The notes below the pieces were generated by a model. That model was given only the letters and a program-made list of their open reading frames with translations, was not told the origin of the DNA and did not search any database. Positions 1 through 55,793 of a stretch of 64,000 bases of DNA are shown piece by piece. Numbering within the stretch: the stretch's first letter is position 1; every line of letters begins with the position of its first letter. The translations under genes and the position numbers were made by a program. Origin of the DNA: the human T2T-CHM13v2.0 reference genome, Homo sapiens; NCBI RefSeq assembly GCF_009914755.1, contig NC_060928.1; one strand, written 5' to 3'.

Positions 1-585
1 ATCCCAACACTTTGTGCTTGTGATTGTGCTATCCGTGTTACAAGCACAAGTTTCCTTTTAGAAACTCATTCTAAATAATGGTGGATTATCGTACACTTTC
101 ATTTCAATGGAAAAAGAAAGTAAAAGAGAAATAAAAGGAAACTTTGACATAGTTTAATAATGAATACAAAAGTCTAGATGGCAAGTTACAGTCCACAGAG
201 TACTTTCCATGGAAGGATGGTGATCTATGGAATGGGAACTGCGAGGACACCTGCCCTTCAGGCTTTTGGAAAGAGAGGTTTGGCTCCTATATTTAAAGTG
301 CTCACAAAGTGCACAGCACAGAGCAAGCCCTGCAAGCAGGTTAGCTAGTATTATTATTCCAATTATGCCCAATGCGGCCCCTAAAGATGATCAGAACTGC
401 AAAGAAGCTATTTGTATACCTGGGTAGCTACTGAAAAAGCAAAAACCAACCAACCAACAAAAAACAAAATAGGAGGAAATCAGCCACAGAATGATTTCAA
501 CTGAGGAGGTCCTCCAATGACAATTTCATTTTCTATTCTCCTGGAAAATCAACCATTCCCTGTTTAACAGGAAAACACTACAGCA

Positions 586-1367
586 TTGTGTTAATCACTA
601 TATTATCACTTGTACTCAGCTTAAGAGAGGAGGAGAAGGCACCCTTAGGTAAGGCAGTGAAGGGACAAGAAGACTGGTGGAGCCGGAAGTGCAGGGTGCT
701 CTAGATTGGAGGTGTTAGCCCTGCTTGAGAATGGGGCCACAGCAGGGCCATGGAAGTTGTCTGTACCTCAGTACTTCACAGTTCGCTGTGCCAGGCCCAC
801 AGAGGTATGGATCTTGCACGCAGGAGGATCAAAGAGCTACGAAGGACCCTGCCTTTCTACGGAGAAAGAAACAGGGCTCTAGCAGAGCCTGGGGTGGGAG
901 AGAGGGCACCCCACAGATTCCTATTTACATTATAATTTTGCATCACAGATTTTCAAAGGCTTGGTCCAGGTTGCTCTTCCTGGGAAGGTTTTCCTCTCAG
1001 TCTGACATGAAAACATTTAGTTTCCTGGTGAGGCCTGGCCTTGCAGTCCTAGGCTAGCGCCTGAGACAAGCACTGGGACTCAGAATAGACTCGCCATTGG
1101 CAGCCAGGAACGCCTGAGGGAGACAACCTGCCCTTCTGTTGGGCCATCCCACCACTGCCTGGCACAGCGAACTGTGAAGTACTGAGGTACAGACAACTTC
1201 CATGGCCCTGCTGTGGCCCCATTCTCAAGCAGGGCTAACACCTCCAATCTAGAGCACCCTGCACTTCCGGCTCCACCAGTCTTCTTGTCCCTTCACTGCC
1301 TTACCTAAGGGTGCCTTCTCCTCCTCTCTTAAGCTGAGTACAAGTGATAATATAGTGATTAACACAA
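586..1367. repeat. Perfect 211-bp inverted repeat (arms 586-796 and 1157-1367, spacer 360 bp)
   Basis: Base-by-base comparison: 1157-1367 is the exact reverse complement of 586-796. Confidence 0.97.
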
Positions 1368-4300
1368 ACATGGGTGCCCAGAGATAGCCATTTACCTAAA
1401 GGATAGTATGTCACTTGCCAAGAAAGAGTCTATATCTCCTAATAAAGTCATTTCTTTCCACAGTCTCACATTTTCCCACCTGTTATTTCCTTATTCCATG
1501 GGGTCACCTTGCAAATTCTCCTGGAAAGTTGGCTTCAGAGAACCTCTGTACAGTTGCTTACCAAAAAGCAACTAATCCCTTTCAGGGACTAGTGCTTAAA
1601 AAAAAAAAAGAGCAAAGAAATTCCTTCACTATGAAATGAGGCAGTTTGTCCCTGGTGGCTCTTTTAAAATACAGGGATGTCAGGGGAGACCAAGTCTTAC
1701 TTCCAAGTGGGAGAAACGGGGGCCTTGTAGTGTTGCTTTACAGATATAAAACAGGTCCAGTCCAGATTATTTTCAAGAAACCACAGGCATGAGGCTCCAG
1801 GGGCTGGAGCTTTCCCACATCTAAGGCTTCACTGGGGGGCTGCGGCTGAAGCTGGGCCAGGCCAGGCGAGCCCCGGCACAGCCCAACCCACCAGTGAAGT
1901 CTGCGCAATCAAAGCCAGCAATTACTGCTCTCCGGCTGCGGCTGGGCTTCAAAGGGAGTGAGGCAAGGCCCATCTTACATATGTTCAGACTTGGGCTCCC
2001 TCCACCAGGAGTCACCACGCATTTGTACTGGGGATGCAAAGGCGGCACAAGACCCCACCCCACCCCATATAACCGAACCCCCCTGATGCTCTCCTGGACC
2101 AAATTCCAATCTTGACAAAATATCCCATCAACCAAATGGAACCATGAACCCAAATGGGTAGAGTTCCTTACTAAAAGCCCAAGCAATAAAGGTGAATCTA
2201 AAGATTTCAAGAGTGGGCCTGTTTCTGGGAGGTCAACAGCACCGACCCTGGGCCAATAGGGCTTTACAGACCCTGACTCAGGAGTGAAGAAAGGGAAAGG
2301 GGGAAACTCCTTCTCTCTAAGCCCAAATAAATGTAAAATCCTACCAAAAGCAGAGCGCTTGGCCAGCTCATGTCCTGGGGGTTCCTCCCCAGGCTGTCCT
2401 CTGGAAGAAAGGGCCAAGGAGACAAGTCTATGGGTGAGCTCTGAGGTGGTGGAGTGGAGGGTCAGGAGCAGGCAAGGGCCAGCCCTGTCAGGGTGCCACT
2501 CAGGGCTCACTGGCCAGTCAGTTTAAGCTGTCCAGGCCAAGGCAAGGGCAGCAAAGCTGGTGTCCAGGAACAAAATGCACCCCTGCCCCATCATGTAATA
2601 TCACTTCCTTATTCAGAATTGGTGAGGATACAAAAAAAGTGAGTTGGAATAAAAGACCCTTTCTTCGTCGTCCTCTTCCTTTTACGCCACTCTCAAATGC
2701 TACTAACAAGAGGCAGGAGCCTTAAACGATGTGCAATTTGAGGGGAGAATATTAGAGATTGGTTTTATGAGAGGTAAACAGATTCACAGATTTTAATTGC
2801 AAAAATGGAATTCCAGCATCACACCACACACCTCATGCCAATTGTCTCCATTTTTACACCTTGGGAAAAACTGACAAAAGCCTGTGATTTGAGGGTGTGA
2901 ACTCTTCTGCTGCACAATGTCATGTGTGTATGAAGGAAGAGAGGTACAGACTTCTACAGCAGGAAGCAAGCGTGACAGAGCTAGTCTAATCCTGTTTTTT
3001 TAGCAGAGACTTAGGAATATGGTCATAAAATGACTGGCCCATGGTGACCCCTAGAGAGTCCCAGTGCTGGGCTGTTCCCCAGGCCTCCTGGCATCATAAA
3101 AGTGACAGTCTTGTTGACTTGAAGGTGGTCTTGTCTGCAAGAAGCTGGTGAGGGGGAAGGAACAAAAACACTGTCCACTACGCACTGATTTGCCAGGCAC
3201 TGAGACATGGACTTTAGAATTTCACATTATCATCATTACAGTTTGCATCTTCCCACCCACTTACAGATAAGGACACTGAGGCTACCTGAAGTTCAGTAAC
3301 TTGCCAAAGGTCACCCAACTAATAGGCAGCAGGATGAGCCTCTGAACTCTCAACATGTGTTCTCTCCACCATACCTTGGAACTAAATTATCATTCACTTT
3401 CTTCTCTCCTTCCTACCTTCCATCATTCTGTCTGTCCATCCCCAGGCAACAACCCCTGTATCCTGGTGGAGGCAGTCTACATCTGTAACAGTGCAGCCAC
3501 CCCCAGGATATCACGCTCTGTTTGAAGAAAGATGATAAAGAGAAACAAACGCATAAGTTAACTTTGAAATTTAAGTCCCTAAGACTGGAAATATAACCTA
3601 CAAAAGCCAGCTTCAGCTCCTTGACAGTAAACATTACCCAACATTTGAGAAAAAAGAAAAATGAAAATGTGTGGTTAGGAAGGTTAACACTGAGTTTTAT
3701 TTCTGCAGCTGAATGACTCCTTAGTCCCAGCATTCAAGACTAGTTAGTTAATCCCCTAACCACAAAGCTCTAAAGCAAAAAGATTCCCAGAAGCTGGAGG
3801 TGGGAGGAAAGGGGTCATTGCCACTCCTGGATTCATGTTCTACCAAGGCAAGGCTTCCTCTCCTGTGGCTATTCAGAGTGAATTACCATCAGCTCAACCA
3901 GACTTTGGCAATGTCAAGATGACTTTGAGACAAGCCTGTGACCGTTAATGAATTACTCCAGGGGAATTTTTCTGTAGCTACTGGTTTCTCTTCCTGATCA
4001 GCCTAGCCCTCTGTGTTTGTCTCCTCTGTGAGGACATGTGTCCTATTGGTAGGCCAGACCTCCTGGTGCAGGTCATGACCGCTAGATCCTTCCTACCACG
4101 GGAAACATGGGAGAAATGGTCTTGAGCAAGTTTTGAAGGAGAGAGCCTCAAAAGCCCATTGTAGTTCTGTCAGCTGAAGTGCTTCCAGAGGGTAATAACT
4201 AGCTAGGTAGACCTCCCTCATCTACTCACCTCCAAACGCTATCCAATCCACATTTCTCTCAACAGACGTTCTCTCACACTAAAGATGTTAAGTTCACCTT

Positions 4301-13965: not shown

Positions 13966-14000
13966 TCAGATGTAGGCAGCTGTCATTCTTGGACCTGTAC
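13966..14000 (-). CDS. LEF1: LEF1 exon 11 coding part: (G)TGPRMTAAYI* (exon 13960-14000, 41 bp including 6 nt of 3'UTR)
   Basis: Acceptor TTTTCTGCAG|GT, stop TGA at 13968-13966, donor CATG|GTAAGA after 13960. Confidence 0.96.
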
Positions 14001-15120: not shown

Positions 15121-15535
15121 GACCCTCTTCAAGGAAAGCCAGCTTAATGAGCCATTCCTTTTCTTACTAACCAACATACTTAGAACCCACTTCTGGTAGT
15201 GCTTAAGATAAACCTTACTGTGAATTCCATTGTCTGATTAAAAGTTCCCTGGTGTTAATTGAGTACCCACAGGCCCTGTGGCACAGAAACGACAAAACCA
15301 AGGAGAAAGGGAGAAGAGAGTGAGAGAACCTGAGAAAACTGAAGATATCTCAAAGACTTATTTCTAGCAATTAAGGACCTTGCTTCCCAAAACAGACAAA
15401 ATAACATGGATATGCACACCATTTTAAATACATTTCAAAACATCTCAATGCCAAATTAAAAAGCTTAGATCCCACTTACAGTGGTCTAATTTTCCCTTTT
15501 CCTTCATAACTACTTTGTCCTCAAAAATAATTTTA

Positions 15536-15830
15536 GGCTGGGTGTGGTGGCTCACACCTGTAATCCCGGCACTTCAGGAAGCCGAGGTGAGCAGATCACG
15601 AGGTCAGGAGTTCAAGACTAGCCTGACCAACATGGTGAAACCCTGTCTCTACTAAAGATACAAAAATTAGCCAGGCGTGGTGGCGTGCGCCTGTAATCTC
15701 AGCTACTGGGGAGGCTGAAGCAGGAGAATCACTTGAACCCGGAGGCAGAGGTTGCAGTGAGCCAGGATTGCTCCACTGGGCCACAGAGTGAGCCTGGGCC
15801 ACAGAGTGAGACTCCATCTCAAAAAATAAT
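15536..15830 (+). mobile_element. AluS
   Basis: GGCTGGGTGTGGTGGCTCACACCTGTAATCCC...GAGACTCCATCTCAAAAA. Confidence 0.92.
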
Positions 15831-16229
15831 AACAATCTTGAAAGAAGACTCCATTATTTTTGATGTGCCGTTTCTCAGGGTCACTGATATCTGCTCTTTG
15901 CCTCAGTGTTGGGGAGGATGATTTCAGTCACCCTTCTGAAGCTGTAAAGCCTCAATGGCCAAGTGACATGAAGAACTATCTTGAGGTGCAGAAATATGCA
16001 CTTTTATAGAGCCACAAAATATATATGGTACAATCTTATAGCCTTTAAAAAAATTATTTGTTAATTTGATTATTACAGCAGACATAAGCTAGAGATATTG
16101 GATATGATATGTGTTCCATTTTAGTTATTTGAAAATACCTGATGCAGGTTGGTCATTTACTATAAGCGGACCATGGCTATACGCTATTAAAATAATTATT
16201 ATTTTGAGACAGGGTCTTGCTCTCATAAC

Positions 16230-16483
<254 letters not shown>

Positions 16484-17863
16484 TAAGTGGGGCTTCTTTC
16501 AAGATTATTAAAGGTGCTCTGGGGACAGGGAGTAGAGAGGGAGTGCACGCTTCTTTCAAGTATCCACAACGGTCCTTTCAATGTAATTACTGCAAGGTTC
16601 AGAAGTTGCTACAAGGTTGTTTCATGTGTCTGGAACTTTATTTCACACTTTCTTCTTTCCCAACCCTTCAACCCGTGTCTCAAGTGTTATCTATTCCATG
16701 AACCTTCTCTGCTCCACACCTTGTTGGTCCATCCCTCAGGCAGAGCTGGGGCTCTTCTTCCTCGCTCCCTATGACCCTGAGCTCACTGCATGACTGAATG
16801 CCTCACAGGTGCTATAATGGGCTCTGTCCCCAGAGCACCACCTGGGTCTCAGCACCACGCTCCCCCACTCACACATGTCTAGAACATAGCCAGCACACAG
16901 TGACCAACTGAGCCTGCACCGTTACGCTTCTACCGCTAAATCAAATAACCTGTTACCTTCTAGGATATCAACCAGTTCTTCAAGAGAATCTACATTTATG
17001 ATAGGCAAAGAGAACTAAGTAGTTTGGATGTATTAATGTCAAGTTATACAAAAACCAAAATTCATGTATGGTAAAAACAAAAAATTTTTTTTGTTAAAAT
17101 TATACGGACTGTATAATATTGGAAAGCATTAAAAACTAAATTGAAAAGTTCTAACATTATAAATATTTGGCTAATCTCACCCAAGAAAATTTGTGCACTA
17201 TTAATTAGCCTGTTATTAGCCAAAGTTAAAAAAACAAGTTCAAATTATAAATCTATGTCATGTAATAGGGTATTTTAATACTGAATAATTGAGATATATA
17301 TTTCACACGATCTCACTGAGGATCAGGATACCATTCTGGCACTAAATGCCTTAATTTTACCTTTATTCTATCCCTGTACAGTACTGTTATTTAAAGAACA
17401 GTATCTTTAGATAAAGTACTATCATTGATCAGCTTCTGTTTGCCTCAGTAATTGAATGACTTATTTTGATTATGATGAAAACACTATGAACGAAGCTGGG
17501 CTTTCCCTTCATTCAAGGAATATGCAAAACAATTTCCTTTAAAAGTTGTGCAGAGGGAAATCTTTAAAGATAAATCACATTACAGTAGCTTTCTTTAAAA
17601 CTACTTTCTTCCCACCCATCAACATGGAGAAGAGAGAGCAGATAGAGAAAGAGATAGAATATGTAGGTGTTTGTTTCATGTCTTTTTAAAAGTTAAAACT
17701 CATTACTTAAGAATTAGAAAAACAAATTTAAAGGCATTCAAGAAGCAATGCTGAATAAAATTCACAGCACAATGAAGTTTACAAAGGTCATATGAGGAAG
17801 ATTAGCTCTCCCCCTTTAGACAAACTACACCCAAAAGACACCTAAGGCAGGATTAGAAGATCC

Positions 17864-18160
<297 letters not shown>

Positions 18161-18316
18161 AGAAGACACTTTTGAAACCCTCTGGGTGAACACTGATCTT
18201 CCTACTTACAGGGCATGGCAGGAGCTCTATATAGAGATGGTAATTGCTGCTCAGAAAACAGAAGCCTGGCTCAGGGGTGAAAATTCTTCAACTACAGCAG
18301 TCTTAAGAAGGCACCG

Positions 18317-18633
<317 letters not shown>

Positions 18634-19285
18634 GAAGGTACTGGAAGACTGAGCTAATCCACTCAGGAGGAGGAAAACCACGTAGATTTTGAAGTCAGAG
18701 TGACCTGGGTGAAAACTTCAGCTTAGCCACCTACTACAAGGCCTTGCATAAATTACCTAAACTCTTCAGCCTCTCAATTTCCTCACCTGAAAAATGGAGT
18801 AATAATATTCATGTAATAGTATTCATTCCACCACTGGGTTGCTGTCAAGAATTTAAGACAGTTCCTAACCATCAGCATATGGTAGTTATTAAGGCAACCA
18901 AAATAACTCAGAAGAGCTGACTATGCTGTTTCCCATAAGTAACAGACAGACTCTTACTTCCTGTGTCAAACTTATATCCAATGTCTGAGCTCCAAACCTT
19001 GACCAGTAAAGTGACTTTTTCTGTGGAGCATATTATAGGAAATAAATTGTGCAACCCATTTCCAGAAATAAGTTTCCATGTGTGCATGACCTCAGATATG
19101 CATCCTTGTCATCATCTCTTGTGAGAACTTGAGCCCCACAGCAGCACCTAAAGCAATGGCTACATATTAAATTGTATATTAATTAACGGCTTCACTCTTG
19201 CTCTTTTAAAAAGAAATAATTTCACTTTTATTAAGACTGACCTGGCTGGCATTTCTAATGCTTGTCTCACGTAGACCCTGAGAAT

Positions 19286-19636
19286 TACTATAGACTGAAT
19301 GTTGTGTTCTCCCAAATACATATGCTGAAATTCTAACCCCCAATGTGATGGTATAATGAGGGAGAGTCTTTGGGAGGTGATCATAGCCTAAGCAAGGAGC
19401 TCTCATGAAGGGGATTAATGTCCTTATAAAAGAGACCCCAGAGCACTCTCTTCCCCCTTCTTCTACCTTGCAAAGATACAGCCAGAAGACTGGGACCAGG
19501 CCCTCACCAGACACCAAACCTGCCTGCACCTTAATCCTGGACTTCACAGGCTCCAGAAGTGTGAGAAATAAACCTGTTGTTTATAACTCACCATGTCCAT
19601 GGTATTTTATTATAGCAGGCTGCATGAACTCAGACA
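19286..19636 (+). mobile_element. MaLR solo LTR (MLT1A/MST-like)
   Basis: TATAGACTGAATG...CCTTATAAAAGAGACCCCAGAG...GTGAGAAATAAA...CTCAGACA. Confidence 0.85.
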
Positions 19637-20007
19637 TAATAACTGCAAAATATTAAATTAACTTAAGAGCTTAAATAGTGAAAATTATTCCCCTCTATAA
19701 AATAAAAGTCTTTGCCCTATCAAGACTACATAAGTGAGATGCTCAAATTCTACAGTAATAAAACAATTGGCACTATAAGTGAGGTATTTCCTGCTGATAA
19801 AATTAGTATGACTTAAACATGATATACCTACACTGAATAGAATATGTGATAGATGCTGGGGTACGATAACATGAAAAAAGATTTTTTTACCCAGTTTTAA
19901 GTAGTCTGTGGCAAAACAGTCACCTGAATACACTGTTTATAAGAAGTGTAAAATAATACAGTCCTTTGGAAAGCAATGTGACAATATGTATGAAGAAATT
20001 TAAAATA

Positions 20008-20350
<343 letters not shown>

Positions 20351-20993
20351 CTATTCAACATAAATAATAGCCCTAAATACAGAAAAAAACTGTTATGTAT
20401 AGACATATTCATTGAAGGAATATTTACATTTGTAAGAAAAACAATAGGAAGCAACTTAAATGTCTAAAAGCAGGAAAAAATAAGATTAAATAAATTGTGA
20501 AATTCACTTAATGGAATATTGATAGACATAAACACTGTGCCATAACAGATAAATGCTTTTTATATATAAGATCGAGAAGTATGCAACAAACATGTATATA
20601 TATACACCCACGCACACAAATATACAAGTAAAAAAAAACCACGCATAGAAAAAATATTAGAAAGTAATATAAGTAGTTATTACTAATGTTGCCTTTACAT
20701 AGTAAGATTATGGTCTTTTTTTAATGTTTCTTTTATCAAATTTTAATAATAAGGTATTAGTTTATTTCAAAAATTTTATTTAAAAGCATTCATTAGCACC
20801 CATAGCAAAAAAAAAAAGATAGCTCGAAGCTTTCATAATGCAATATATCCATGAAATCCTTATTACAAAGTTCATTAACTTCCAAAAAATAAGTAGTACC
20901 AGCATTATATACACCTAAAACACATTTCCTTCTTGAACGCAAAAGAGCGAATGAGTGAGAGTGGAGAGCCACTGGTATGGAGGAGGGGCTTAC

Positions 20994-21101
20994 ATAATTG
21001 TCTCTTGCAGACCAGCCTGGATAAAGCTGCATATGTAGCTGTCTTTCTTTCCGTGCTAATTCATAATATTTAGCCTGCTCTTCACGGGAGAGGGCATGCC
21101 A
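20994..21101 (-). CDS. LEF1: LEF1 exon 9 (108 bp), second half of HMG box: [36 protein letters not shown]
   Basis: Acceptor CTGTTTTAG|TGG, donor TTAT|GTAAGC. Confidence 0.98.
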
Positions 21102-21329
21102 CTAAAACAGAGAGGAAGGAAGAAAAAAACAAAAGTAAGCAAAATAGCAATAGCATATTTTATGTTTCAAAAATCAAAAAATGAAAATATTAAGCATTTA
21201 AACTTTGATTTATTTTTAAATTGCAGAAGACCAAGTGCCAAGTGCCGTAGAAATCTCCTTGGAGTCTAGTGGCTACAGTGAAACTCAAACTTTGGTTTCT
21301 CTATCCTGTTCTCTGATATCACATGAAAC

Positions 21330-21357
21330 ACATCAAAGTCAATCAAAGTGTTCAAAG
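21330..21357 (+). promoter_or_regulatory. Three tandem TCF/LEF motifs (candidate)
   Basis: ACATCAAAG-TC-AATCAAAG-TG-TTCAAAG; motif match only. Confidence 0.35.
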
Positions 21358-23227
21358 TAAAATGATCTCTGTCACCCACCCTTTCTCTTTTCCAATATAA
21401 ATTAAAAAGAACTTTCACTGGTGAACCTCAACACCCAACTTCACTGTTTTTCACAGTTACTAGCATATTCTGATATCTGAGCCCAAGTACTTTTTATTTA
21501 TGCAAAACGTGATAATTTCCAGATGTCTTTTAAAACAGATATACCCTCTCCTCATATGAACACTTTCCCATTTTGTCATATGAAGAGCCTGAAACCTTAA
21601 TCATATGATTATCTATAAAGAAGGACATGAAAAGTCAGCCTGTGTATCTCCATCTCTTCATTGTCTCCTCACACTCATATAGACGCTGTCTATAGGGACA
21701 ACACTGATGACACTGTCCAGTCACACAAGCATTTATGGCTATGGCTTTTAGCCTCCTTCTGATGGACAGCACGGGGCATTATTTAAGTTTGTTTTGCCAT
21801 CTAGAATTTGAGACTGTAATTTCTAATATGAAGAATGTAGCTGCTAATATCCTTCAAACTTTTTGTCTCCTTTTTACATAACTGATTATATAGCACATAT
21901 AACAAAGTCATTTATGTAGGAAAGGTATCTGGGATTTTAAGGGGTTTACATTTGCACACTGCTTTGCATACATCTGCACATGACTCACCCCAGTCCCCAG
22001 CAGACAGTGTTCATGTATTTTCCCAACTTCCCCAATGCCAGGATCTGCCAGCAGAACTTTCCAGGGAGAACCATCTGGGATTTGGGAGAACCACTGTCCA
22101 TGAGGGTATGACACAGAGGCGATGGTAGCTATACAAGGATGAGACCAGAGCCCACACTACGCAAACATACATGCTCACCTGAGCACATACACATGCAAAA
22201 CACACACACACCCCACTCACATGCTCACCTGAGCACATATACCCACATCCACATGCATAACACACATGCTCCTCTGTGCACATAAACTATGTGCACACCA
22301 CACACGCTCACTTTTGTACCCGCATGTGCTCACCTGTGTGCACACACAATCTGTCAGCTGGGAGCCTCCCTGCTCCTGCTCTCCCCCAACTCTCAGGTGT
22401 GGAGCTTCCCATTTTGCTTCCTTCCCATTGCAGGCTATGAGATTCTTTCCCATTCATGGCTGCCCTGCATATTAATTTTGATCTCCCTGTTCATGTTTTT
22501 TAAAATGATTTTTAAATAAGAAGGGAATGGGTGGGTTGGAGGAAGGATAGAGTGAGAGAGGTTGATGAGAGAGAAAAACTTCTCCTAGAGGAGGCTATGT
22601 CTAAGTCCTCATCAACTTGGGCTCAGCCCCTAAAGTGTAGCTAAGAAAACAAACACCTGCTGCTCTTGTTTGACAACAGTACATGAAGCTGATTTCATGA
22701 GACATGACAGCACCTTCCGGCCACACCCCACCTCCAGTTCCAACCACCAGTGCGAGAAGCAGCAGTTCCCACCAGAAGGGTAACAGAGTCCGTTTCCTTT
22801 GAAAGCCCCTTAAAAGTCAGGCAGTCTGTGCTGAAGAGGATAGATGATTTATTGTTTAATTGCTTTAGAAGTGCAGAGCGTGAGGTTAAAAAGCATGACA
22901 CACAGCAGGGCTTGCCCTGAGCCTAAAGCAAATCAGGTGATGTGCTTTTGTTTAAAAAAAAAATTAGAGGGAGGTGCCAGGAAAACAAAACAAAACAACC
23001 CTGGAAACAGTTACCTTAAGTACAGTTCTTTGTACTAGTAGAATAAACATTAGACAAATCGAGCCTGAGAAGAATCTGTGTCTGGGGCAGCAGCAGTGGT
23101 TTAAATTGGGATGGAAAAGTCACACTGCTGCTAGCAACTGACAGCTTTTTAAACCTGGAACACTGACCTAGTATTACAGACCTTCACAGGGAGAAAAACC
23201 AAACTGGATACAAAAGGAAACATCATC

Positions 23228-23402
23228 GTTTTTTGTTGTTGTTGTTGTTGTTGTTGTTTTTAAGAGACAGGGTTTCGCTGTGTTGCTGGAGTACAGTGGT
23301 GTGATCATGGCTCACCGCAGCCTCGAACTCCTGGGCTCCAGCAATCTTCCCACCGCAGCACTGAGCTAGGATTACAGGAATACATTACCAGGCCTGGCTA
23401 AT
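23228..23402 (-). mobile_element. Alu right-monomer (FRAM/AluJ-like) with (GTT)n tail
   Basis: Single diverged monomer in reverse. Confidence 0.75.
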
Positions 23403-23433
23403 CCTTGATTTTGTAAAAGAAAAGCAATATTTA

Positions 23434-23739
<306 letters not shown>

Positions 23740-24154
23740 TTACACAATTAGCTTTAGTGCTAAATAAGGATGATTGGCAAGAGGCAAAGTTTTACCAATA
23801 AGGAAAAAAATTAGGGACAAAAAAAATAAAAGAAGACAGGAAGTCTTCCATTTTAAATTTACTATTTGACAACTATCATTCCCCTATATACAACACCTTT
23901 TATTACTGTATCAGTATAGTTTTACGTAACTTACAGTAGCTGAGAAAACCTGGAATCATAAATACAAATTAACTCCCAAAATAGGTATCAAGTTTGGGTC
24001 TTCTACCCAAACAACGAGGTATTTTTCAGTTAAAACAAGAAACAGGTTGACAAAAAGACCCAAGCTAACGAAACTGAATAAAAGGCAAGGAGGCAAAGTA
24101 GGCATAAACTAAACTATTTATTTACATGTTCCATTGCTTTAAGTCCTCTGATAA

Positions 24155-24370
<216 letters not shown>

Positions 24371-26701
24371 AGTTCTCTGATATTTCTAATGTACAAAAAT
24401 GACTCACAAATAGAAGATCACTTACCAAAATGAACAGTAGATAAAATGATGTAATTAAAGTTTTGCATTGAAAACAAAAACAAAGTCTAGTACAGACCTG
24501 AAAGATGGTCTTTCTTTACAGGAATTTCTGAAACACAATTGACTAAAAATGCTTCTCTATCTCTATTTACTGCAAAATAAAGAGTCAAACTTTTTAAAAA
24601 TCAAATCTCATTGTCAAGATTTCACCAAGTTGTGGGGAAAATATCCATTTAATTTGAATAAACTTGTACAGTTCCAAGATAAAACATTCTCATGACAAAT
24701 TTGTGATAAATGGATTTCCTTTAATAGCCAGGAAGGTCTGAAGAGAAAAGGCTTATTTTAAAATAAAATTTGTGATATTATTATTTATAATATGGATTAA
24801 AAATAAAACTTTGATTAATTCATATGAACACTATTTTAGAGATATAGTAAAGATGAATAAAAATCAAAAGATAAAATGTTCTGGGATGGATTTAAGATCC
24901 ACTTTTAAGAACTCAAATTATCCCAGTGTAAAACGTCATGATTTTGATGCCAGAGACTTTAAAGAGCTAGCAAGGGCTGCCCTGCCAGAGGGGAGTTATG
25001 AAAGGATAGAAAACCTGATCTTAATCAAAGATCTCAGAGACCTATAAATAGAAACAGGTGTCTAAATCAGAGACAGACAGAGACCCCAAATAAGAACCAT
25101 CCTTTAGGACACATGCTCGGATCTGGGGATTGTTAAGGGAGCTGAGAAAGTAGCAATTGTTGGAAATGTGCATTAAGAATAGGAAGCATACCTTCATATC
25201 ATATCCTCACTCTCTGTATTCAGCAGGAAAGTAATTCCCACTGGAGGGCCAGGGGGCCCTTAACTCAAAAAAGAAAAAAGAAAAAACTAAGAGTTGCATA
25301 CAAGCTGAAATAAAAACATCAGCCCTTCTTTTCCTCTGATTTCTTCTTTTAAAGAGTCAGGGAAAATGATCATCAGTTTTTAAGGCGGAGTTCTTCCAAG
25401 ATGATGGGAATCACTCATCTGCCATGATCTGGCTTGGGAAAGCATTGTAATTATTGTTATTAAGTGTCTAAGAATCCACAGGGAGATAGGGCATTGTACA
25501 CAGGACACCAAAAAAGCTATAATCTATCACCACATCCTCCCCTGGAAACCCTGGTGACTTGCAGATTGGAAATAGCTGCATTTTGAGGCTATCCAATGGG
25601 AATCGATAATGTAAGAGGGCCTGCTTCCCTCCTGTTCACATGGACTGGAAATCTCCTAAATGTTTTCTGTTATAAATGCTCAAATTTATTAGGTTCAGAA
25701 CAGACCTGGTAAAATTATCATCGACAATAGCTAACACATGATCCTCTATGTTTCACAAGGGTTGTTAGATCCTCCTCAACTGAATGTTCATTTGCCAATC
25801 ATGAATTTCTTGAGAGGTTGCAAAAACAAACACAGGGTCACAAATTAAGAGGCTACCACACAGATATGAAGAGCATCAACAAATTAAGATGAAACATTTC
25901 TAAAATTATAATGATAACGTGACTATGGTGAAAATGTAATTTAAATTAGAGAAACTCAAACTTTTCTTACCACTCTTCAGCCATCTAACTGAAATCACTT
26001 CAATCCCATACAAAGTACTTGGAAGGACTGACTATGTATGTCTTTTGGCTGACAGTTGGATAAACAATCTTAGAGTGTCTATCCTAGTTGTAGCCTGCTG
26101 CCTGGTACATAACAGGGGCTCAGAAAAATATCATAGCATTGGTGAAAGAATGAATGAAAAGAAAAGGGCAACCCAGAAACCTGGCAGGTGTACACTTGGA
26201 GATTTGGAGAACAGTCTTTCTAGAATCAAGACTCCTCAGGATCATATACATTCTTCCATGTAAAGCCTCATGGTAGAACAGCTCTGCTTCTGTCCTGGAA
26301 GGAGTGGCCACCTCTGTTTGCCAGGACGGTCCCCCAAAGGCCTTGCTGTAGCTCCCTAAAGAGCTAAACGCTTTCCTGTTTCAGAGGCGGCACACACATG
26401 CTACTCCATCTGCATGTGGGGGAGTCTACCTCTCCCCATTCGTCTCTACTTACTCTCACATCTCAGCTTAAATACAGTTTCCTCAGAGGGGCCTGCCCAA
26501 GCCCCTACTGTTCTTTCTCACTGAATCTTATTCCCTACATTCACAGTATTTATCATAATTTTTATTACATATTTATTGGCTATTTATTTGTCTAATGTCT
26601 GTATTCTGTCATAAAACTTGAAGCTCCAGAAAGGGGCTGTACCTATTTTGGCTAATAGAGGCCCTAACAATGATTTATAGATCTGTAAATTCTAGGTGGA
26701 T

Positions 26702-27010
26702 ATTTATTTAATTTTTTGAGACAGAGTCTCTTTCTGTTGCCCAGGCTAGAGAGCAGTGGCACAATCTCGGCTCACTGCAACCTCCGCCTCCCAGGTTCAA
26801 GTGATTCTCCTGCCTCCTGCCTCAGCCTCCCGAGTAGCTGAGATTATAGGCATCCACCACCACACACTCAGCTAATTTTTGTATTTTTGGTAGAGATGGG
26901 GTGTCACCATGTCAGCCAGGCTGGTCTTGAACTCCTGACCTCAGGTGATCTGCCTGCCTCGGCCTCTCAAAGTGCTGAGATTACAGGCATGAGCCACCGT
27001 GCCCAGTGGC
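26702..27010 (-). mobile_element. AluS
   Basis: Full dimer in reverse. Confidence 0.9.
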
Positions 27011-27103
27011 TGCATCTACTTTATTCAGCAATTATTACCTAATCTCCAGGCATCATGCCTGACCCAAAAGGATAATAAATATCTGTTTAAAGAATGATAA
27101 TGG

Positions 27104-27375
27104 GGCTTTAGGAGGTCGAGGTGGGTGGATGACTTGAGGTCTGGAGTTCAAGATCAACCTGGCCAACACAGTGAAACCCTGTCTCTACTGAAAAAAAAAA
27201 TACAAAAATTAGCCAGGTGTGGTGGTAGGCAACTATAATTCCAGCTCCTCAGGAAGCGGAGGCAGGAGAATCACTTGAAGCTGGGAGGCAGAGTTTGCAG
27301 TGAGCCAGGATCATGCCACTGTACTCCAACCTGGGTGACAGAGCAAGACTCATCTCAAAAAAAAAAAAAAAAAAA
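27104..27375 (+). mobile_element. AluS, 5'-truncated
   Basis: Alu consensus with long A tail. Confidence 0.88.
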
Positions 27376-27536
27376 GAATGATAACAGGGCCAGAAACGGT
27401 GGCTCCCACTTATTCACCCAGCACTTTGGGAGGCCAAGGTGGGAGGTTTGCTTGAGCCCAGGAGTTTGAGACCAGCCTGGGCAGCATAGCAATACCACAT
27501 CTCTACAAAATTTTTTTTTTTTAATTAGCCAGGCAT

Positions 27537-28219
27537 TGGCCACTGTCCCGTCTAGCAAGTGAGGAGCCCCTCTGCCTGGCTGCCCCATCTGGGAAGTGAG
27601 GAGTGCCTCTGCCTGGCCGCCCAACTGACTGGGAAGTGAGGAACCCTTCTGCCCGGCCACCCAACTGACTGGTAAGAGAGAAGCGCCTCTGCCCGGCTGC
27701 CGCCCTGTCTGGGAGGTGAGGGGCACCTCTGCCCGGCTGCCGCCCCGTCTGGGAAGTGAGGGGCACCTCTGCCCGGCTGCCGCCCAGTCTGGGAAGTGAG
27801 GGGCGCCTCTGCCCGGCTGCCGCCCCGTCTGGGAAGTGAGGGGCGCCTCTGCCCGGCTGCCGCCCCGTCTGGGAAGTGAGGGGCGCCTCTGCCCGGCTGC
27901 CGCCCCGTCTGGGAAGTGAGGGGCGCCTCTGCCCGGCTGCCGCCCCGTCTGGGAAGTGAGGGGCGCCTCTGCCCGGCTGCCGCCCCGTCTGGGAAGTGAG
28001 GGGCGCTTCTGCGCAGCTGCCGCCCCATCTGGGAAGTGAGGGGCGCCTCTGCCCGGCTGCTGCCCCATCTGGGAAGTGAGGGGCGCCTCTGCCCGGCCTC
28101 TGTGCAACCCTCCAAGTGTGAAGTGACAGCCTTGTGTGTGATCTTCCTGCCCTCCCCAAGTTTGCATTTTCAACATTAAAGTTTACTTTTTAATTAAAAG
28201 TTTTAAATTGGAAAAAAAA
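27537..28219 (+). mobile_element. SVA2-like VNTR retroelement (SVA-type 40-bp VNTR + unique 3' end + A tail) inserted in an AluJ
   Basis: Unit GGGCGCCTCTGCCCGGCTGCCGCCCCGTCTGGGAAGTGAG; non-SINE-R 3' end TGTGCAACCCTCCAAGTGTGAAGTGACAGCC...ATTAAA...A-tail; TSD AATTAGCCAGGCAT at 27523-27536 and 28220-28233. Confidence 0.85.
27562..28098 (+). repeat. GC-rich 40-bp VNTR, about 13 units
   Basis: Units start every 40 bp from 27601 to 28081. Five identical copies at 27801-28000. Confidence 0.95.
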
Positions 28220-28550
28220 AATTAGCCAGGCATGGTGGCACAACGACTACAGTCCCAGCTATTCGGGAGGTTGAGGTGGGAGGATCGCCTGAACCCAGGA
28301 GGTCAAGGCTGCAGTGAACTATGATCATACCACTGTACTCCAGTCCAGCTTGGGCAACAGAGTGAGACGCTGTCTCAAAAAAAAAGAATAACAGTAAAAA
28401 CAGTTATCAAAATTCTTTAAAATGCATCATATCATATCTTGAAGTGCAAACACATTCTATGACCACCTGATATGGGATTAAATTGGGGCAGATTTTCATG
28501 AAGCAGTTCCATGGCTACCATGAACATTTACACATGACTCGGCTACTTAC

Positions 28551-51132: not shown

Positions 51133-52132
51133 CAAACACTGAATCCCTTCCTAAATTACTAGGTGAAAAACTCTTATTTATTTCTTTGACAAACAAGAGG
51201 ATCATAATCTTGATCTCTGTCTGAAACTATTTCAGATGAAAAATTTCAAAGATTATCATTTAACATGGTCTGGGGTGACCTGCTTCATGACCCACTTCCT
51301 GCTAACACTGGAGGGATGTGTAGGCATTTGTCCCTAATTACTCTGTCTGGTTCCTTGCCTTGGGTCTAGACAGCATTGGGTTTGAGTCACTGGATACAAG
51401 GAGGAACTTTACTGCACAGCAATGAGAAGAGATTTGTAGAAGATTCACAGGTATTTCTTCCTTTTACTTCTCAAGGAAAGTGTTAATGTAAGGCATAATG
51501 TAAAACGTTTGATGTGATTATTTTAGAAAGTTATCCATAAGACACAAAAAAAGCAAATAATTGAGACTTTCACAAGTGCATTAAAGAATAATTAATGCAG
51601 CTTTCGACATGAGGCAGTGTATCAGAGCGCAGTTGTCCAGGCCAAATGCACAGAAGCTGACATTGGGCTAAATACAGTATTAAAATAGAGAAAGATGAGA
51701 CACTTTTGTCTTTGCAGCAGGTTCACTCAAGAAACAAATTCTTTCTAGAGAATATGAAAATCAGCTTAGGGATTTCTGAAAACCATTGTGAATCTCAGGA
51801 AGAGGGGTAAAGAAGTAAAAATAATTTAAGGGCTTATTGAAGAATGTTCTCAAGACAGTCTACTCTTGCATGTAGCAAGAATGGTAAACAGAAGTGAGAG
51901 GAGTGGGTAGGCAAGTTCCTGTGTACAACAACTTGGAGTTTGCGACCCATGAGTATTGGATTCCTGCTATCAAGAAATGATAAAGTGTGAGCACTGGATT
52001 CCTGCTATCCACAAATGATAAATGAAATTCTAAAGCTTTGAATTTCAACACTCTAATATTTTGTAGTTCTGACACTATGGCTAAAAGCAGCTATGGAAAA
52101 AAGTCAGGAAAGCAAAAGAAAGAACTGCATAT

Positions 52133-52395
<263 letters not shown>

Positions 52396-54164
52396 AGGAC
52401 GGACTTATTTACTGAACATTTTAAGAATCAGTTTTAAAATGGATCAATGCCACATTGCTGATGGTAGGCACTGGTTTAATGGCAACGTGCACTGGGAATC
52501 TGAAAGAACATAAATGGTAATTTGAAGAACATCAATAAAGCTTACAGAACAGATTTAAGACACAGAGCAGGAGCATTCTGTCATTACATTACTTCAATTC
52601 TCATTAAAATTATTACTAACCTGATTTCTTCCAGCGTAGGGACCTGTAAGGCTGTGCTAATCATTACAACCTACAGATGAGACGTGGTCATCCTGCCAAA
52701 ATTCCACAAAGGGCTATGCCCTTTCTCTTCAGCAAAGGCACCACTCTGTACTCCTGTGCCTTTGACCTGCCTCGAATCTCTACCACTAAATTAACCTTCA
52801 CAGAAAAACTCAGTTGGACAAGTCTGTGATGAGGAAAGTGGCATTCCTCAGTCTCAGAAGAAGGGAAGGAGATAGGAGGCACCTAGAGTCAGTTGCATAG
52901 ACATAAAGTCAGTGCAAAGACTCCAGCTGATACAGGGACATGATGTTCAGTGGTTCTAAGTTCTATGCCTTGTATGATTACAGAGCTAGGGTCTTACATA
53001 CAGCAAATATGGAATAAGAGTCCTGTCTTATTCCAGTGGTCTGGATTCTAAGTCTCCAGTAAGTACTTTATTTCAAAGAGGACACATCTTTGGCAGTGTG
53101 GTATAGCTATGAATGAGCTCCTCCAACAAAAGGGTGATGTCTTGAGGGAGAAAGCTATAATTAAACAATAATGAAAACCATCACATTTACATTAGCTTAC
53201 AAAGTGCTTCCATGACCCTTATCTCATTTGGATCTCATTATCACCCTGCAAGAAAGGTATTAATAAATATCCCATGTTTCAGAGAAGGACAAGAAAGCTC
53301 AGCAAAGTCCAAAAGCAGTAGAACTCAATCCTGTTTTCTTTCACCAAACCATGATGCAGCCCATTTTCTGGTTCTCTAAGAGCACGCAGCTCCCGTCACT
53401 ACGTGGGTCTCAAAAGTTGACCTAGAGTGGGCCACTAGGCCTCAGAGGCAAGAGTGAGAATTGTCAAGCTGCAAACACGCAGCCAAACAACAAAGCATCA
53501 CTATGGAACCTTCGCCTTCCTCCTAAAATGCTGTCATCATCTGTGTTTATGTTTTAGAAATGTTTATGTAATATCATGTGAATGTGCTAATGAACAGTAC
53601 AATCAATCAGTATATTATTCACAAGCCTTGTGATTCCCAGGACAAGCTGATAAATGGGATGTCAAGAAAGAATGTAAGCTATTCTTGCATATTCAGAAAA
53701 ATCCCATCCACAGAACAAAGAAACATCCATTTTAAGGAATGAATTTATGTGCCTATGTTTTTCACCTTCCCCTTAATTTTCCAGTTTACGCTACAAATTT
53801 CTTCACGCTCTCAATTCTTCCAGCTAACTAGAAATGCTCAAGATATCTTCTCTACCTTGTTACATCTAATTCTTGACCATAATTACAACTGATTTCACCG
53901 GAATTTGGATATATCTATTAAAAGATCTGTGGGAATTCATTTTCTCCACACACCCTATTTAATCATTTCAATGTGTAAATGTGGAGACACTGTAAGTCAA
54001 TGTAAATAATGTTTTCTTTTGCTTAACATAACCTGAATTTTTCCTTCTCCTCTTACTACTAATTCAGTTGTTTTCTCTAAAGAAAAGTGTTAATTTAACT
54101 CCCTCTTCCTCTTAAAAAATTCTAAGTAGTTGATGTTTTGAGGTTTAAAGATATTCAAAAGAAA

Positions 54165-54730
54165 TAGAAAACAGTTTTGCAGTTCCTCAAAAAGGTAAAC
54201 ATAGAACTACCATACGACCCAGTGATGCCACTCCTTCTGAAAGAATTGAAATCATATATTCACATGAATACACATATACAAATGTTAACAATGTTAAAAA
54301 CTGAAAACAACTCAAAATGTCCATCAACTGATGAATGGATAAACAAATTGTGGTACATATAATGCAATGTAATATTATTCATCTATGAAAAAGAAGAAAG
54401 TACTGACATTCAATGGATGAACTCTGAAAACATTCTGTTAAGTGAATAAACCATAAACAGAAAGGCCACATATTATATGATATGTATATGTATATGTATA
54501 TGAAATGTCCGGACCAGGCAAAGTCATAGTAACAAAGTAGATGAGGGGTTGCCAGGGGCTAAGTGGAGGCAGTAATTGAGAATGACTGCTAACAGATACC
54601 GGGTTTCTGTTTGGAGTGATGGAATTAGACAGTGGTGATAGTTGTACAACATAGTGAATATACCAAAAACCACTGATTGAAGGCTAATTTTACTTTATAC
54701 AGAAGGCAAATCCAAGTGAAATTTTACCAA
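54165..54730 (+). mobile_element. L1MB-type fragment
   Basis: FLKKVNIELPYDP...KCPSTDEWINKLWYI ORF2 remnant followed by L1MB-like 3'UTR. Confidence 0.8.
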
Positions 54731-54736
54731 GTGAAA

Positions 54737-54832
54737 TTTATATATATATAAAAATACAATAAATATTATATATAAATTATATATATAAAATATATATATA
54801 AATTATTATATAATAATAATATACATATTATA
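54737..54832. repeat. AT-rich (TA)n low-complexity tract
   Basis: Direct reading. Confidence 0.85.
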
Positions 54833-55475
54833 TCTCTGAACATTGTAATTTCACATGTAGTGATGACAGGGGAATTCCAGCAAGCTAAAATTGGGATGCT
54901 ATATAACCAGTGTCCAACCCACAGCAAAGTACGACATATTGTATATGTTTAGGCAGACAGGTGACACCCAAACTATCGTATGAAGGACATACCTATGAAT
55001 GCTCTTTCCCACTCCCCGCCCTCAATTCCTGGGCCTATCTCCCCATGATGGCAAAAGGGCTGTTATTAGTTTTCCTTGCCCCTCCCCTTCCAGGGCTCTC
55101 TCTGGAGTTCCATAAATGGCATCAATCTGACTCTCTGGGGGCATGCCGGTGAACTGACAGCTAGGAGTTGGAGGTGTGCCTTTTCAGGTATCCTCCAAAC
55201 TGCCAGAGGACAATTAGGGAATGTGCAAGCCTCCTGGGAGTCCGCACTGTCTTCTAGGCTTGTTCTCAGCTGCCAGGTGAGAGATAGGCATGTGACACGG
55301 GAGCTGAAGAGAACGTGCAGACTCTAAAATCACAGGCATGAGCAAAAGTCTCTGTCATCAGGCCCAGTTAGTCTTCATCAATAACCTGGAAACGATACAT
55401 ATTTAACCCTCAGAGCTTAATACTATGGGTTTACGTTTTTCCTACATTTAAAAACACTGCTTTTTTTAAACTTAA

Positions 55476-55793
<318 letters not shown>

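What the first reader, a model, noticed from the sequence alone, without database searches (positions are those of the whole stretch)
586..1367. Perfect 211-bp inverted repeat of apparently non-TE sequence in the last LEF1 intron
Seen: 586-796 and 1157-1367 are exact reverse complements (no mismatch found) around a 360-bp spacer, and I recognise no Alu/L1/LTR in the arms. The interspersed repeats in this window are all diverged, so full identity implies a very recent origin, ongoing arm-to-arm gene conversion, or an assembly/engineered artefact. Inference: LEF1 pre-mRNA would fold a 211-bp perfect duplex, a potential ADAR substrate, Dicer hairpin-siRNA source or PKR/MDA5 ligand. In DNA it could extrude a hairpin or let the spacer flip as a polymorphic micro-inversion.
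Basis: partly seen in the sequence, partly recalled or inferred. Interest (0 to 1): 0.9.

Follow-up and report, generated by a model that had tools for sequence, protein, structure and literature searches.

The report
Young inverted duplication in LEF1 intron
A 211-base stretch of unique LEF1 intron sequence is present twice, in opposite orientations 360 bases apart and without one difference, which most likely marks a recent one-step copying error that lets the LEF1 precursor RNA fold into a long hairpin, with no evidence of a function.

Summary
Arms 586-796 and 1157-1367 are exact reverse complements over 211 nt around a 360-nt spacer. Complementarity stops abruptly at all four arm ends. The whole CHM13 genome holds no further copy, so this is not a transposon family. 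There is no target-site duplication, no Rfam match and no plasmid or vector match. Among 89 other nearby inverted-repeat pairs in 264 kb of the same genome, the best is 87% identical.

The best reading is a single, evolutionarily young inverted duplication. It could arise by template switch or snap-back copying, or by a micro-inversion with a staggered break. Zero mismatches in 211 nt put arm divergence below about 1.4% (95%), with a median of 0.33%. That points to the human lineage, with roughly a 1 in 5 chance that it is still polymorphic.

LEF1 sense RNA folds into the full 211-bp stem, a plausible nuclear ADAR substrate. Because the hairpin is intronic, roles as an MDA5, PKR or Dicer substrate are unlikely.

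No ape genome or second human assembly was available. The ancestral state, the fixation status and any RNA editing are therefore untested. The repeat is rare but of a known kind, and of modest interest.

The parts
586..796 (.). Left arm of the inverted repeat (211 nt). In LEF1 sense RNA (minus strand) it is the second arm to be transcribed.
   Evidence: exact reverse complement of 1157-1367. GC 51%, CpG at 684 and 784. No other copy in the genome.
797..1156 (.). Single-copy spacer (360 nt). It forms the loop of the hairpin and is the segment that would invert if the arms recombined.
   Evidence: No internal repeat of 20 nt or more. GC 52.5% and 6 CpG. The two spacer ends are not complementary to each other.
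1157..1367 (.). Right arm of the inverted repeat (211 nt). In LEF1 sense RNA it is the first arm to be transcribed.
   Evidence: exact reverse complement of 586-796. Complementarity ends at 1367/1368.
586..1367 (-). Predicted intronic RNA hairpin in LEF1 pre-mRNA: a 211-bp perfect stem and a 360-nt structured loop.
   Evidence: MFE -588.5 kcal/mol against -283.8 +/- 6.7 for 20 shuffles. The stem holds 53 + 50 adenosines; 46 have a 5' U or A neighbour and 24 have a 5' G; the same stem forms in single-stranded DNA, -344.6 kcal/mol.

Best explanation
This is a single-locus, evolutionarily young inverted duplication with no selected function. One 211-nt stretch of unique LEF1 intron sequence was copied in reverse orientation 360 nt away in one mutational event. 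Two mechanisms fit. In the first, a nascent 3' end switches template or snaps back during replication or break repair, copies 211 nt of the opposite strand, and then returns. In the second, a micro-inversion of about 571 nt occurs whose break at one end was staggered by 211 nt, was filled in and was rejoined by end joining, which leaves the staggered stretch at both ends in opposite orientations. The event most probably happened on the human lineage. It may or may not be fixed.

What is shown: the structure, its uniqueness in the genome, its sharp ends and the predicted folds. What is inferred: the age, the mechanism and neutrality.

The consequence is that every LEF1 pre-mRNA carries a hairpin with a 211-bp perfect stem about 1.5 kb upstream of the last exon. 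That hairpin should form co-transcriptionally, be bound and heavily A-to-I edited by nuclear ADARs, and be degraded with the excised intron.
For: 1. Arm identity is 100% over 211 nt. By contrast, 89 other local inverted pairs in 264 kb of the same genome reach at most 87.3%.
2. A whole-genome search returns only the two arms themselves, so the source of the copy is the neighbouring arm and not a dispersed element.
3. All four arm ends are sharp. Complementarity falls to chance level or below immediately outside the arms, with no graded decay. This is what one discrete recent event would leave.
4. With 0 mismatches in 211 nt, P(0) is 0.075 at 1.23% arm divergence, 0.034 at 1.6% and 0.0008 at 3.4%. 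Under a flat prior the median divergence is 0.33% and the 95% upper limit is 1.42%, or 1.21% if the four CpG positions per arm count tenfold. The ape divergence figures are recalled.
5. Both CpGs of the arm are intact in both copies.
6. Template switching is documented to create perfect nearby inverted repeats in great-ape genomes (PMC7954356, passages). Staggered breaks are documented to leave inverted duplications of non-repetitive sequence at inversion ends (PMC1885836, abstract and passages).
7. There is no Rfam family and no target copy elsewhere in the genome. Nothing therefore points to a selected RNA.
Against: No outgroup or second human assembly could be consulted. It is therefore not shown that an ancestor lacked one arm, which arm is the copy, or which way the spacer lay.

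The documented short-range template switches act over tens to hundreds of nucleotides. A 211-nt copy placed 360 nt away is at the large end of that range.

No terminal microhomology or direct repeat is seen if either arm is treated as a simple insert; all four tests gave 0 nt. This does not favour a microhomology-guided return to the point of departure. It fits blunt end joining, or a return accompanied by a small deletion.

The age estimate assumes no gene conversion between the arms and a flat prior.

Neutrality is assumed and was not tested.
Confidence: 0.62

Rival explanations
1. The inverted repeat is old (pre-hominid), and its arms are kept identical by recurrent arm-to-arm gene conversion or by quasi-palindrome correction through intramolecular template switching.
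For: Perfect identity is what homogenisation produces. Template switching is reported to convert imperfect inverted repeats into perfect ones (PMC8755829, passage; PMC7954356, passage). At 211 nt the arms are near the minimal homology for mammalian recombination. PMC8755829 quotes 50-250 bp for eukaryotes.
Against: At 211 nt, a single new mismatch already shortens the uninterrupted homology, so homogenisation is not self-sustaining (inference). The 360-nt spacer lowers hairpin-mediated correction (recalled). Identity runs to the very last base at all four ends with no edge decay, whereas conversion tracts usually leave diverged edges. No diverged extension of the repeat exists beyond the arms.
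Confidence: 0.12
2. It is a selected RNA element: a regulatory intronic hairpin. It might act as an ADAR or dsRBP docking site affecting LEF1 3' end processing or nuclear retention, or as a source of hairpin-derived small RNAs.
For: The predicted stem is extremely stable in LEF1 sense RNA. The gene is strongly expressed in lymphocytes (recalled). One paper reports that LEF1 editing level correlates with LEF1 expression in adipose tissue, without giving the site (PMC11229675, passage).
Against: Selection on an RNA stem tolerates G-U pairs and mismatches and would not keep 211 of 211 Watson-Crick pairs. There is no Rfam match at E <= 1. No other genomic copy exists that siRNAs could target in trans. 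The hairpin lies about 1.5 kb from the nearest splice site (plus the hub table for exon 11). Long, nearly perfect dsRNAs are reported to be selected against even in pre-mRNAs (PMC7006430, passages). Intronic dsRNAs do not reach cytosolic sensors (PMC12695637, passages).
Confidence: 0.05
3. It is an artefact or a private change: an assembly or polishing error in CHM13, or a mutation that arose in the CHM13 cell line.
For: Only one assembly was seen here. Perfect identity is also what an artefact would show.
Against: The whole 782-nt structure sits between normal unique flanks and is far shorter than a single long read. A mis-join of repeats is therefore not needed to explain it (inference). Read-level fold-back chimeras run to the read end and would not survive consensus (recalled knowledge). 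There is no vector or plasmid match. A new structural mutation in culture is far rarer than inherited variants (recalled).
Confidence: 0.04
4. It is a non-autonomous DNA transposon whose 211-nt terminal inverted repeats are the arms.
For: The architecture fits: terminal inverted repeats around a short core, 782 nt in total.
Against: There is no second copy in 3.1 Gb. There is no target-site duplication at 585/1368 for lengths of 2-8 nt. Human DNA transposons have been extinct for tens of millions of years (recalled), so their ends should differ by several percent rather than 0. A relaxed search of the arm against 264 kb gave no hit at E <= 1, though this test is weak for ancient families. No Dfam or RepeatMasker library was available.
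Confidence: 0.02

Closest known systems
Short-range template-switch mutations (four-point model; Loytynoja & Goldman; Walker et al. 2021, PMC7954356)
   Same: A stretch of nearby sequence is copied in reverse complement in one event, creating a perfect inverted repeat from unique local sequence. Thousands of such events are described in great-ape genomes (passages).
   Different: The described events search 'tens to hundreds of nucleotides' and mostly make short hairpins. Here the copy is 211 nt with a 360-nt spacer. The ancestral state, which defines such an event, was not seen.
Inversions flanked by inverted duplications from staggered breaks (Ranz et al. 2007, PMC1885836)
   Same: An inverted duplication of ancestrally unique, non-repetitive sequence flanks a single-copy segment, with blunt-looking junctions and no microhomology.
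   Different: That model was described for chromosomal inversions in Drosophila with gene-sized duplications. Here the segment would be only about 571 nt, with a stagger at one end only. Whether the spacer is inverted relative to the ancestor is unknown.
Intronic inverted-repeat Alu pairs as ADAR substrates
   Same: Two inverted copies in one intron fold into a duplex of about 200-300 bp in pre-mRNA. Such duplexes are edited in the nucleus and removed by splicing (PMC12695637, PMC11838218, PMC7006430; passages).
   Different: The arms are unique sequence, not Alu, and they pair perfectly. Edited dsRNAs in the dsRNAscan catalogue have a median of 31 contiguous base pairs and about 85% pairing. 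Here there are 211 contiguous pairs at 100%. Editing was not tested here.
Long, nearly perfect dsRNAs catalogued in human pre-mRNAs (Barak et al. 2020; dsRNAscan 2025)
   Same: It belongs to the same rare class. dsRNAscan found 31,017 of 5.13 million predicted dsRNAs to be more than 96% paired, and 2,018 to be also longer than 300 bp. Barak et al. found 197 such structures in human RefSeq pre-mRNAs.
   Different: At 211 bp it falls below the 300-bp cut-off of both lists. Most listed cases are LINE or Alu pairs. LEF1 is not named in the main text of either paper, and the supplements could not be read.
Hairpin-RNA (hpRNA) endo-siRNA loci of Drosophila and mouse oocytes
   Same: Both are long inverted duplications that transcribe into a perfect hairpin.
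   Different: hpRNA arms derive from a target gene elsewhere in the genome, and here no other copy exists. This locus is intronic and nuclear. Efficient processing of long dsRNA by Dicer is not expected in human somatic cells (recalled).

Membership tests
DNA transposon / MITE with terminal inverted repeats | Multiple dispersed copies in the genome | tested here: not met
   the whole-genome search returns only the locus itself (3 matches, all self).
DNA transposon / MITE with terminal inverted repeats | Target-site duplication directly flanking the element | tested here: not met
   the 2-8 nt on each side of 586-1367 do not repeat.
DNA transposon / MITE with terminal inverted repeats | Match to a catalogued family consensus (Dfam/Repbase) | not testable with these tools
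   No repeat library is held. The only proxy is relaxed blastn against 264 kb, which found nothing for the arm and is weak for ancient families.
Template-switch (snap-back) inverted duplication | A perfect inverted copy lies close to its unique local source | tested here: met
Template-switch (snap-back) inverted duplication | The ancestral or outgroup sequence has one copy, with the spacer in the same orientation | not testable with these tools
   No ape or other human assembly is available in any tool.
Template-switch (snap-back) inverted duplication | Microhomology at the switch points | tested here: inconclusive
   0 nt of shared terminal sequence at the outer junctions under either polarity. 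Any priming microhomology at the inner junction would be hidden inside the arms.
Inversion with inverted duplication from a staggered break | An inverted duplication of non-repetitive sequence bounds a single-copy segment | tested here: met
Inversion with inverted duplication from a staggered break | The bounded segment is inverted relative to the ancestor | not testable with these tools
   This needs an outgroup.
Intramolecular dsRNA substrate of ADAR | Both arms lie in one transcript and a stable duplex is predicted | tested here: met
   The hub gene table places both arms in the LEF1 last intron; full 211-bp stem, z -45.
Intramolecular dsRNA substrate of ADAR | Clustered A-to-G mismatches in RNA-seq on both arms | not testable with these tools
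   No RNA-seq or editing database is available. Papers naming LEF1 editing give no site.
hpRNA / endo-siRNA hairpin locus | A homologous target gene exists elsewhere in the genome | tested here: not met
   no other copy.
hpRNA / endo-siRNA hairpin locus | Phased 21-23-nt small RNAs come from the stem | not testable with these tools
   No small-RNA data are available.
Known structured RNA family (Rfam, including miRNA precursors) | Covariance-model match | tested here: not met
   0 matches at E <= 1 in window 1-3000, both strands.
Large palindromes maintained by gene conversion (sex-chromosome type) | Arms of kilobases or more, conserved across primates, with near-identity through conversion | tested here: not met
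   The arms are 211 nt. Conservation is not testable.

The most novel reading that the evidence does not exclude
The hairpin is a human-lineage-specific, fixed innovation that makes LEF1 pre-mRNA one of the very few abundant lymphocyte transcripts carrying a perfect, non-repeat dsRNA longer than 200 bp. It would act in cis. For example, ADAR or dsRBP loading, or hyper-editing-dependent nuclear retention, could tune use of the last exon or LEF1 output in T cells. Under intron retention or ADAR1 loss it could become an unusually potent self-dsRNA. Alternatively, the 360-nt spacer could flip recurrently between the arms as a cryptic micro-inversion polymorphism.
Probability: 0.05. Interest if true: 0.6.

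Novelty: new member of a known kind. Interest (0 to 1): 0.33.

Why it matters
If the reading is right, this is a clean natural example of a mid-sized inverted duplication caught before any decay. It is larger than the usual template-switch hairpins and far smaller than segmental-duplication palindromes. One comparison with ape and pangenome assemblies would show which mechanism made it. It also puts a perfect 211-bp duplex into the precursor RNA of a highly expressed lymphoid transcription factor. That makes it a convenient endogenous, non-Alu test substrate for nuclear ADAR hyper-editing and for the fate of intronic dsRNA. It does not by itself change what is known about LEF1 or about dsRNA sensing.

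Tried and rejected
- **Transposon with terminal inverted repeats.** Rejected on copy number and on the lack of a target-site duplication.
- **Known RNA family or miRNA precursor.** No Rfam match.
- **Vector or engineered hairpin.** No match in 72,556 plasmid records.
- **A larger insertion bounded by the 13-nt direct repeat at 535-547 and 1515-1527.** The repeat is at chance level (E 0.32). It lies at unequal distances from the arms, has no poly(A) and shows no similarity beyond the 13 nt (reading). Dropped.
- **An older, larger repeat with only a homogenised core.** No residual complementarity exists outside the arms.
- **A look-alike of the start of the last LEF1 exon near window -59.** It was seen by eye in a translation. 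It is not supported by blastn, which found no colinear hit. Dropped.
- **Polarising the event from junction microhomology.** Uninformative without an ancestor.
- **Literature on this repeat.** Searches found no paper describing it. LEF1 is absent from the main texts of PMC11838218, PMC7006430, PMC12695637, PMC8755829 and PMC3961182.
- **Supplementary tables.** The dsRNAscan tables, where the locus might be listed, could not be opened.

Full report
**Observation**

Positions 586-796 and 1157-1367 are reverse complements of each other over 211 nt without a mismatch, and 360 nt lie between them. A script confirmed letter-for-letter equality.

The repeat cannot be extended by a single base in either direction. 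Outside the arms, complementarity drops at once to chance level or below. Ungapped matches are 13 of 100 outward and 19 of 100 inward, and local alignment scores are below the mean of 200 shuffles.

One search found 29 inverted pairs within 5 kb in the window and listed the 25 longest. This is the only perfect pair; the 24 others listed are 70-90% complementary and lie in the Alu-rich part of the window.

As a control I took 20 stretches of 10 kb from 20 other places in the same genome. In these 200 kb plus the window, 89 other inverted pairs (arm of 80 nt or more, spacer up to 5 kb) had at most 87.3% identity and a median of 78.9%. These are unmerged BLAST pairs. The repeat is therefore real and a clear outlier.

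**What the arms are not**

- A search of the whole 3.1-Gb assembly with the 782-nt unit returned only the unit itself and its two arms on the opposite strand. The arms therefore do not belong to any young or moderately diverged repeat family.
- A relaxed blastn of the arm and the spacer against the rest of the window gave nothing below E = 1. Against the 200-kb control it gave no arm hit and one 51-nt spacer hit at E 0.01. This test is weak for very old families such as MIR or L2, and no repeat library was available.
- An ancient element could not in any case supply two identical arms.
- There is no target-site duplication at the outer ends.
- Rfam gave no match at E <= 1 on either strand of 1-3000.
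- No plasmid or vector record matched.

**Age**

If the two arms have diverged freely since the copy was made, the chance of seeing no difference in 211 nt depends on the arm divergence:

| Arm divergence | Comparable species distance (recalled) | Chance of 0 differences |
|---|---|---|
| 1.23% | human-chimpanzee | 0.075 |
| 1.6% | human-gorilla | 0.034 |
| 3.4% | human-orang-utan | 0.0008 |

The species distances are recalled values and do not come from a call. Under a flat prior the median divergence is 0.33% and the 95% upper limit is 1.42%. The limit is 1.21% if the four CpG positions of each arm are weighted tenfold.

The repeat therefore probably arose on the human lineage. The posterior is about 0.92 under these assumptions, with about 0.19 that it is young enough (below 0.1%) to be still polymorphic. 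'Very recent' is true only in this relative sense. Perfect identity over 211 nt does not require an origin within the last few thousand generations.

**Mechanism**

The structure is arm, single-copy spacer, then inverted arm. All of it is unique local sequence with sharp ends. Two documented one-step processes leave this structure.

- *Template switching or snap-back copying* during replication or break repair. [quoted passage not shown]
- *An inversion with a staggered break.* The overhang is filled in and ends up at both ends of the inverted segment. This was proposed for 17 of 29 Drosophila inversions that carry inverted duplications of non-repetitive sequence (PMC1885836, abstract and passages).

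Treating either arm as a simple insert, I found no shared terminal bases at the junctions (0 nt in all four tests). That fits blunt end joining somewhat better than a microhomology-guided return. It does not decide the matter, because a priming microhomology at the inner junction would be hidden inside the arms. The two models differ in one testable respect: the orientation of the spacer in the ancestor. No tool here holds an ape or a second human assembly, so this remains open.

**Rival: an old repeat kept identical**

Gene conversion or quasi-palindrome correction can make imperfect repeats perfect. Against this rival:

- The arms are only about as long as the minimal homology for recombination.
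- The spacer is long.
- Identity reaches the last base at all four ends with no edge decay.
- No diverged extension of the repeat exists.

I give this rival about 0.12.

**RNA consequences**

LEF1 lies on the minus strand, and by the hub's table the repeat is in the last intron of the selected transcript. The stop codon of that transcript is in exon 11 (coding ends at 13966), so this is an intron within the 3' untranslated part. From the reading frame and recalled knowledge of the transcript, I place the acceptor of the last exon near window -912, about 1.5 kb downstream of the hairpin in the sense of transcription.

The sense RNA folds into the complete 211-bp stem. The MFE is -588.5 kcal/mol against -283.8 +/- 6.7 for shuffles, z -45. 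The stem contains 103 adenosines, 46 of them with the 5' neighbour that ADARs prefer (the preference itself is recalled). A long perfect duplex in nuclear pre-mRNA is a textbook substrate for promiscuous A-to-I editing (recalled). Whether it is edited was not testable. One paper reports that LEF1 editing level correlates with LEF1 expression in adipose tissue but gives no site (PMC11229675, passage).

- *MDA5 or PKR ligand.* Intronic dsRNAs are removed by splicing and are reported not to act as cytosolic MDA5 ligands (PMC12695637, abstract and passages).
- *Selected dsRNA.* Long, nearly perfect duplexes are reported to be depleted even from pre-mRNAs (PMC7006430, abstract and passages).
- *siRNA source.* There is no second genomic copy that siRNAs could target.

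**DNA consequences**

As single-stranded DNA the unit also folds into the full stem (-344.6 kcal/mol, z -46). With a 360-nt spacer, cruciform extrusion and lagging-strand hairpins are expected to be inefficient (recalled from yeast and human Alu-pair studies, not tested). Recombination between 211-nt arms could invert the spacer at a low rate. Only population long-read data can show this.

**How rare it is**

- The dsRNAscan catalogue predicts 5.13 million human dsRNAs. Of these, 31,017 are more than 96% paired and 2,018 are also longer than 300 bp. Most of the 2,018 are LINE pairs, and 88% of them are intergenic. Edited dsRNAs have a median of 31 contiguous pairs (PMC11838218, passages).
- Barak et al. 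list 197 human pre-mRNA structures above 300 bp and 96% identity.
- A 211-bp, 100% paired, non-repeat duplex in a well-expressed gene falls below both length cut-offs but clearly belongs to this rare class.
- LEF1 is not named in the main text of either paper. Their supplements, which may list the locus, could not be opened.
- Five literature searches found no description of this repeat.

**Verdict**

The structure is best read as a young, probably human-lineage inverted duplication with no evidence of function. It is a new member of known kinds: template-switch or staggered-break inverted duplications, and intronic dsRNA-forming repeats. Interest is modest. It would rise if ape and pangenome comparisons showed a fixed human-specific origin together with strong editing in T cells.

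Noticed in passing
window 535-547 and 1515-1527: An exact 13-nt direct repeat lies 39 nt left of the left arm and 148 nt right of the right arm. It is at chance level in a 3-kb self-comparison (E 0.32), with no poly(A) and no further similarity. It is not a target-site duplication of a larger insert.
   Followed up: partly
window 13966-14000 (hub table) and L004 about 4088 (window about -912): The selected LEF1 transcript ends its coding part in exon 11, so the intron carrying the repeat is a 3'-UTR intron. Translation of the presumed start of exon 12 shows a short open frame closed by a stop after about 25 codons. This fits the alternative C-terminal tail used when exon 11 is skipped (recalled).
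   Followed up: partly
window 15500-28400 and 52100-55800: There are dense clusters of Alu-like inverted pairs at 70-90% complementarity with spacers of 150-4100 nt. These are the ordinary imperfect dsRNA-forming repeats of LEF1 introns and make a useful internal contrast to the perfect repeat.
   Followed up: no
L004 4774-4992 (window -226 to -8): A translated frame there looked by eye like the peptide encoded at the start of the last LEF1 exon. Blastn found no colinear similarity, so it is probably chance.
   Followed up: yes
window 48-60 and 132-144: An exact 13-nt inverted pair at chance level (E 0.32).
   Followed up: no
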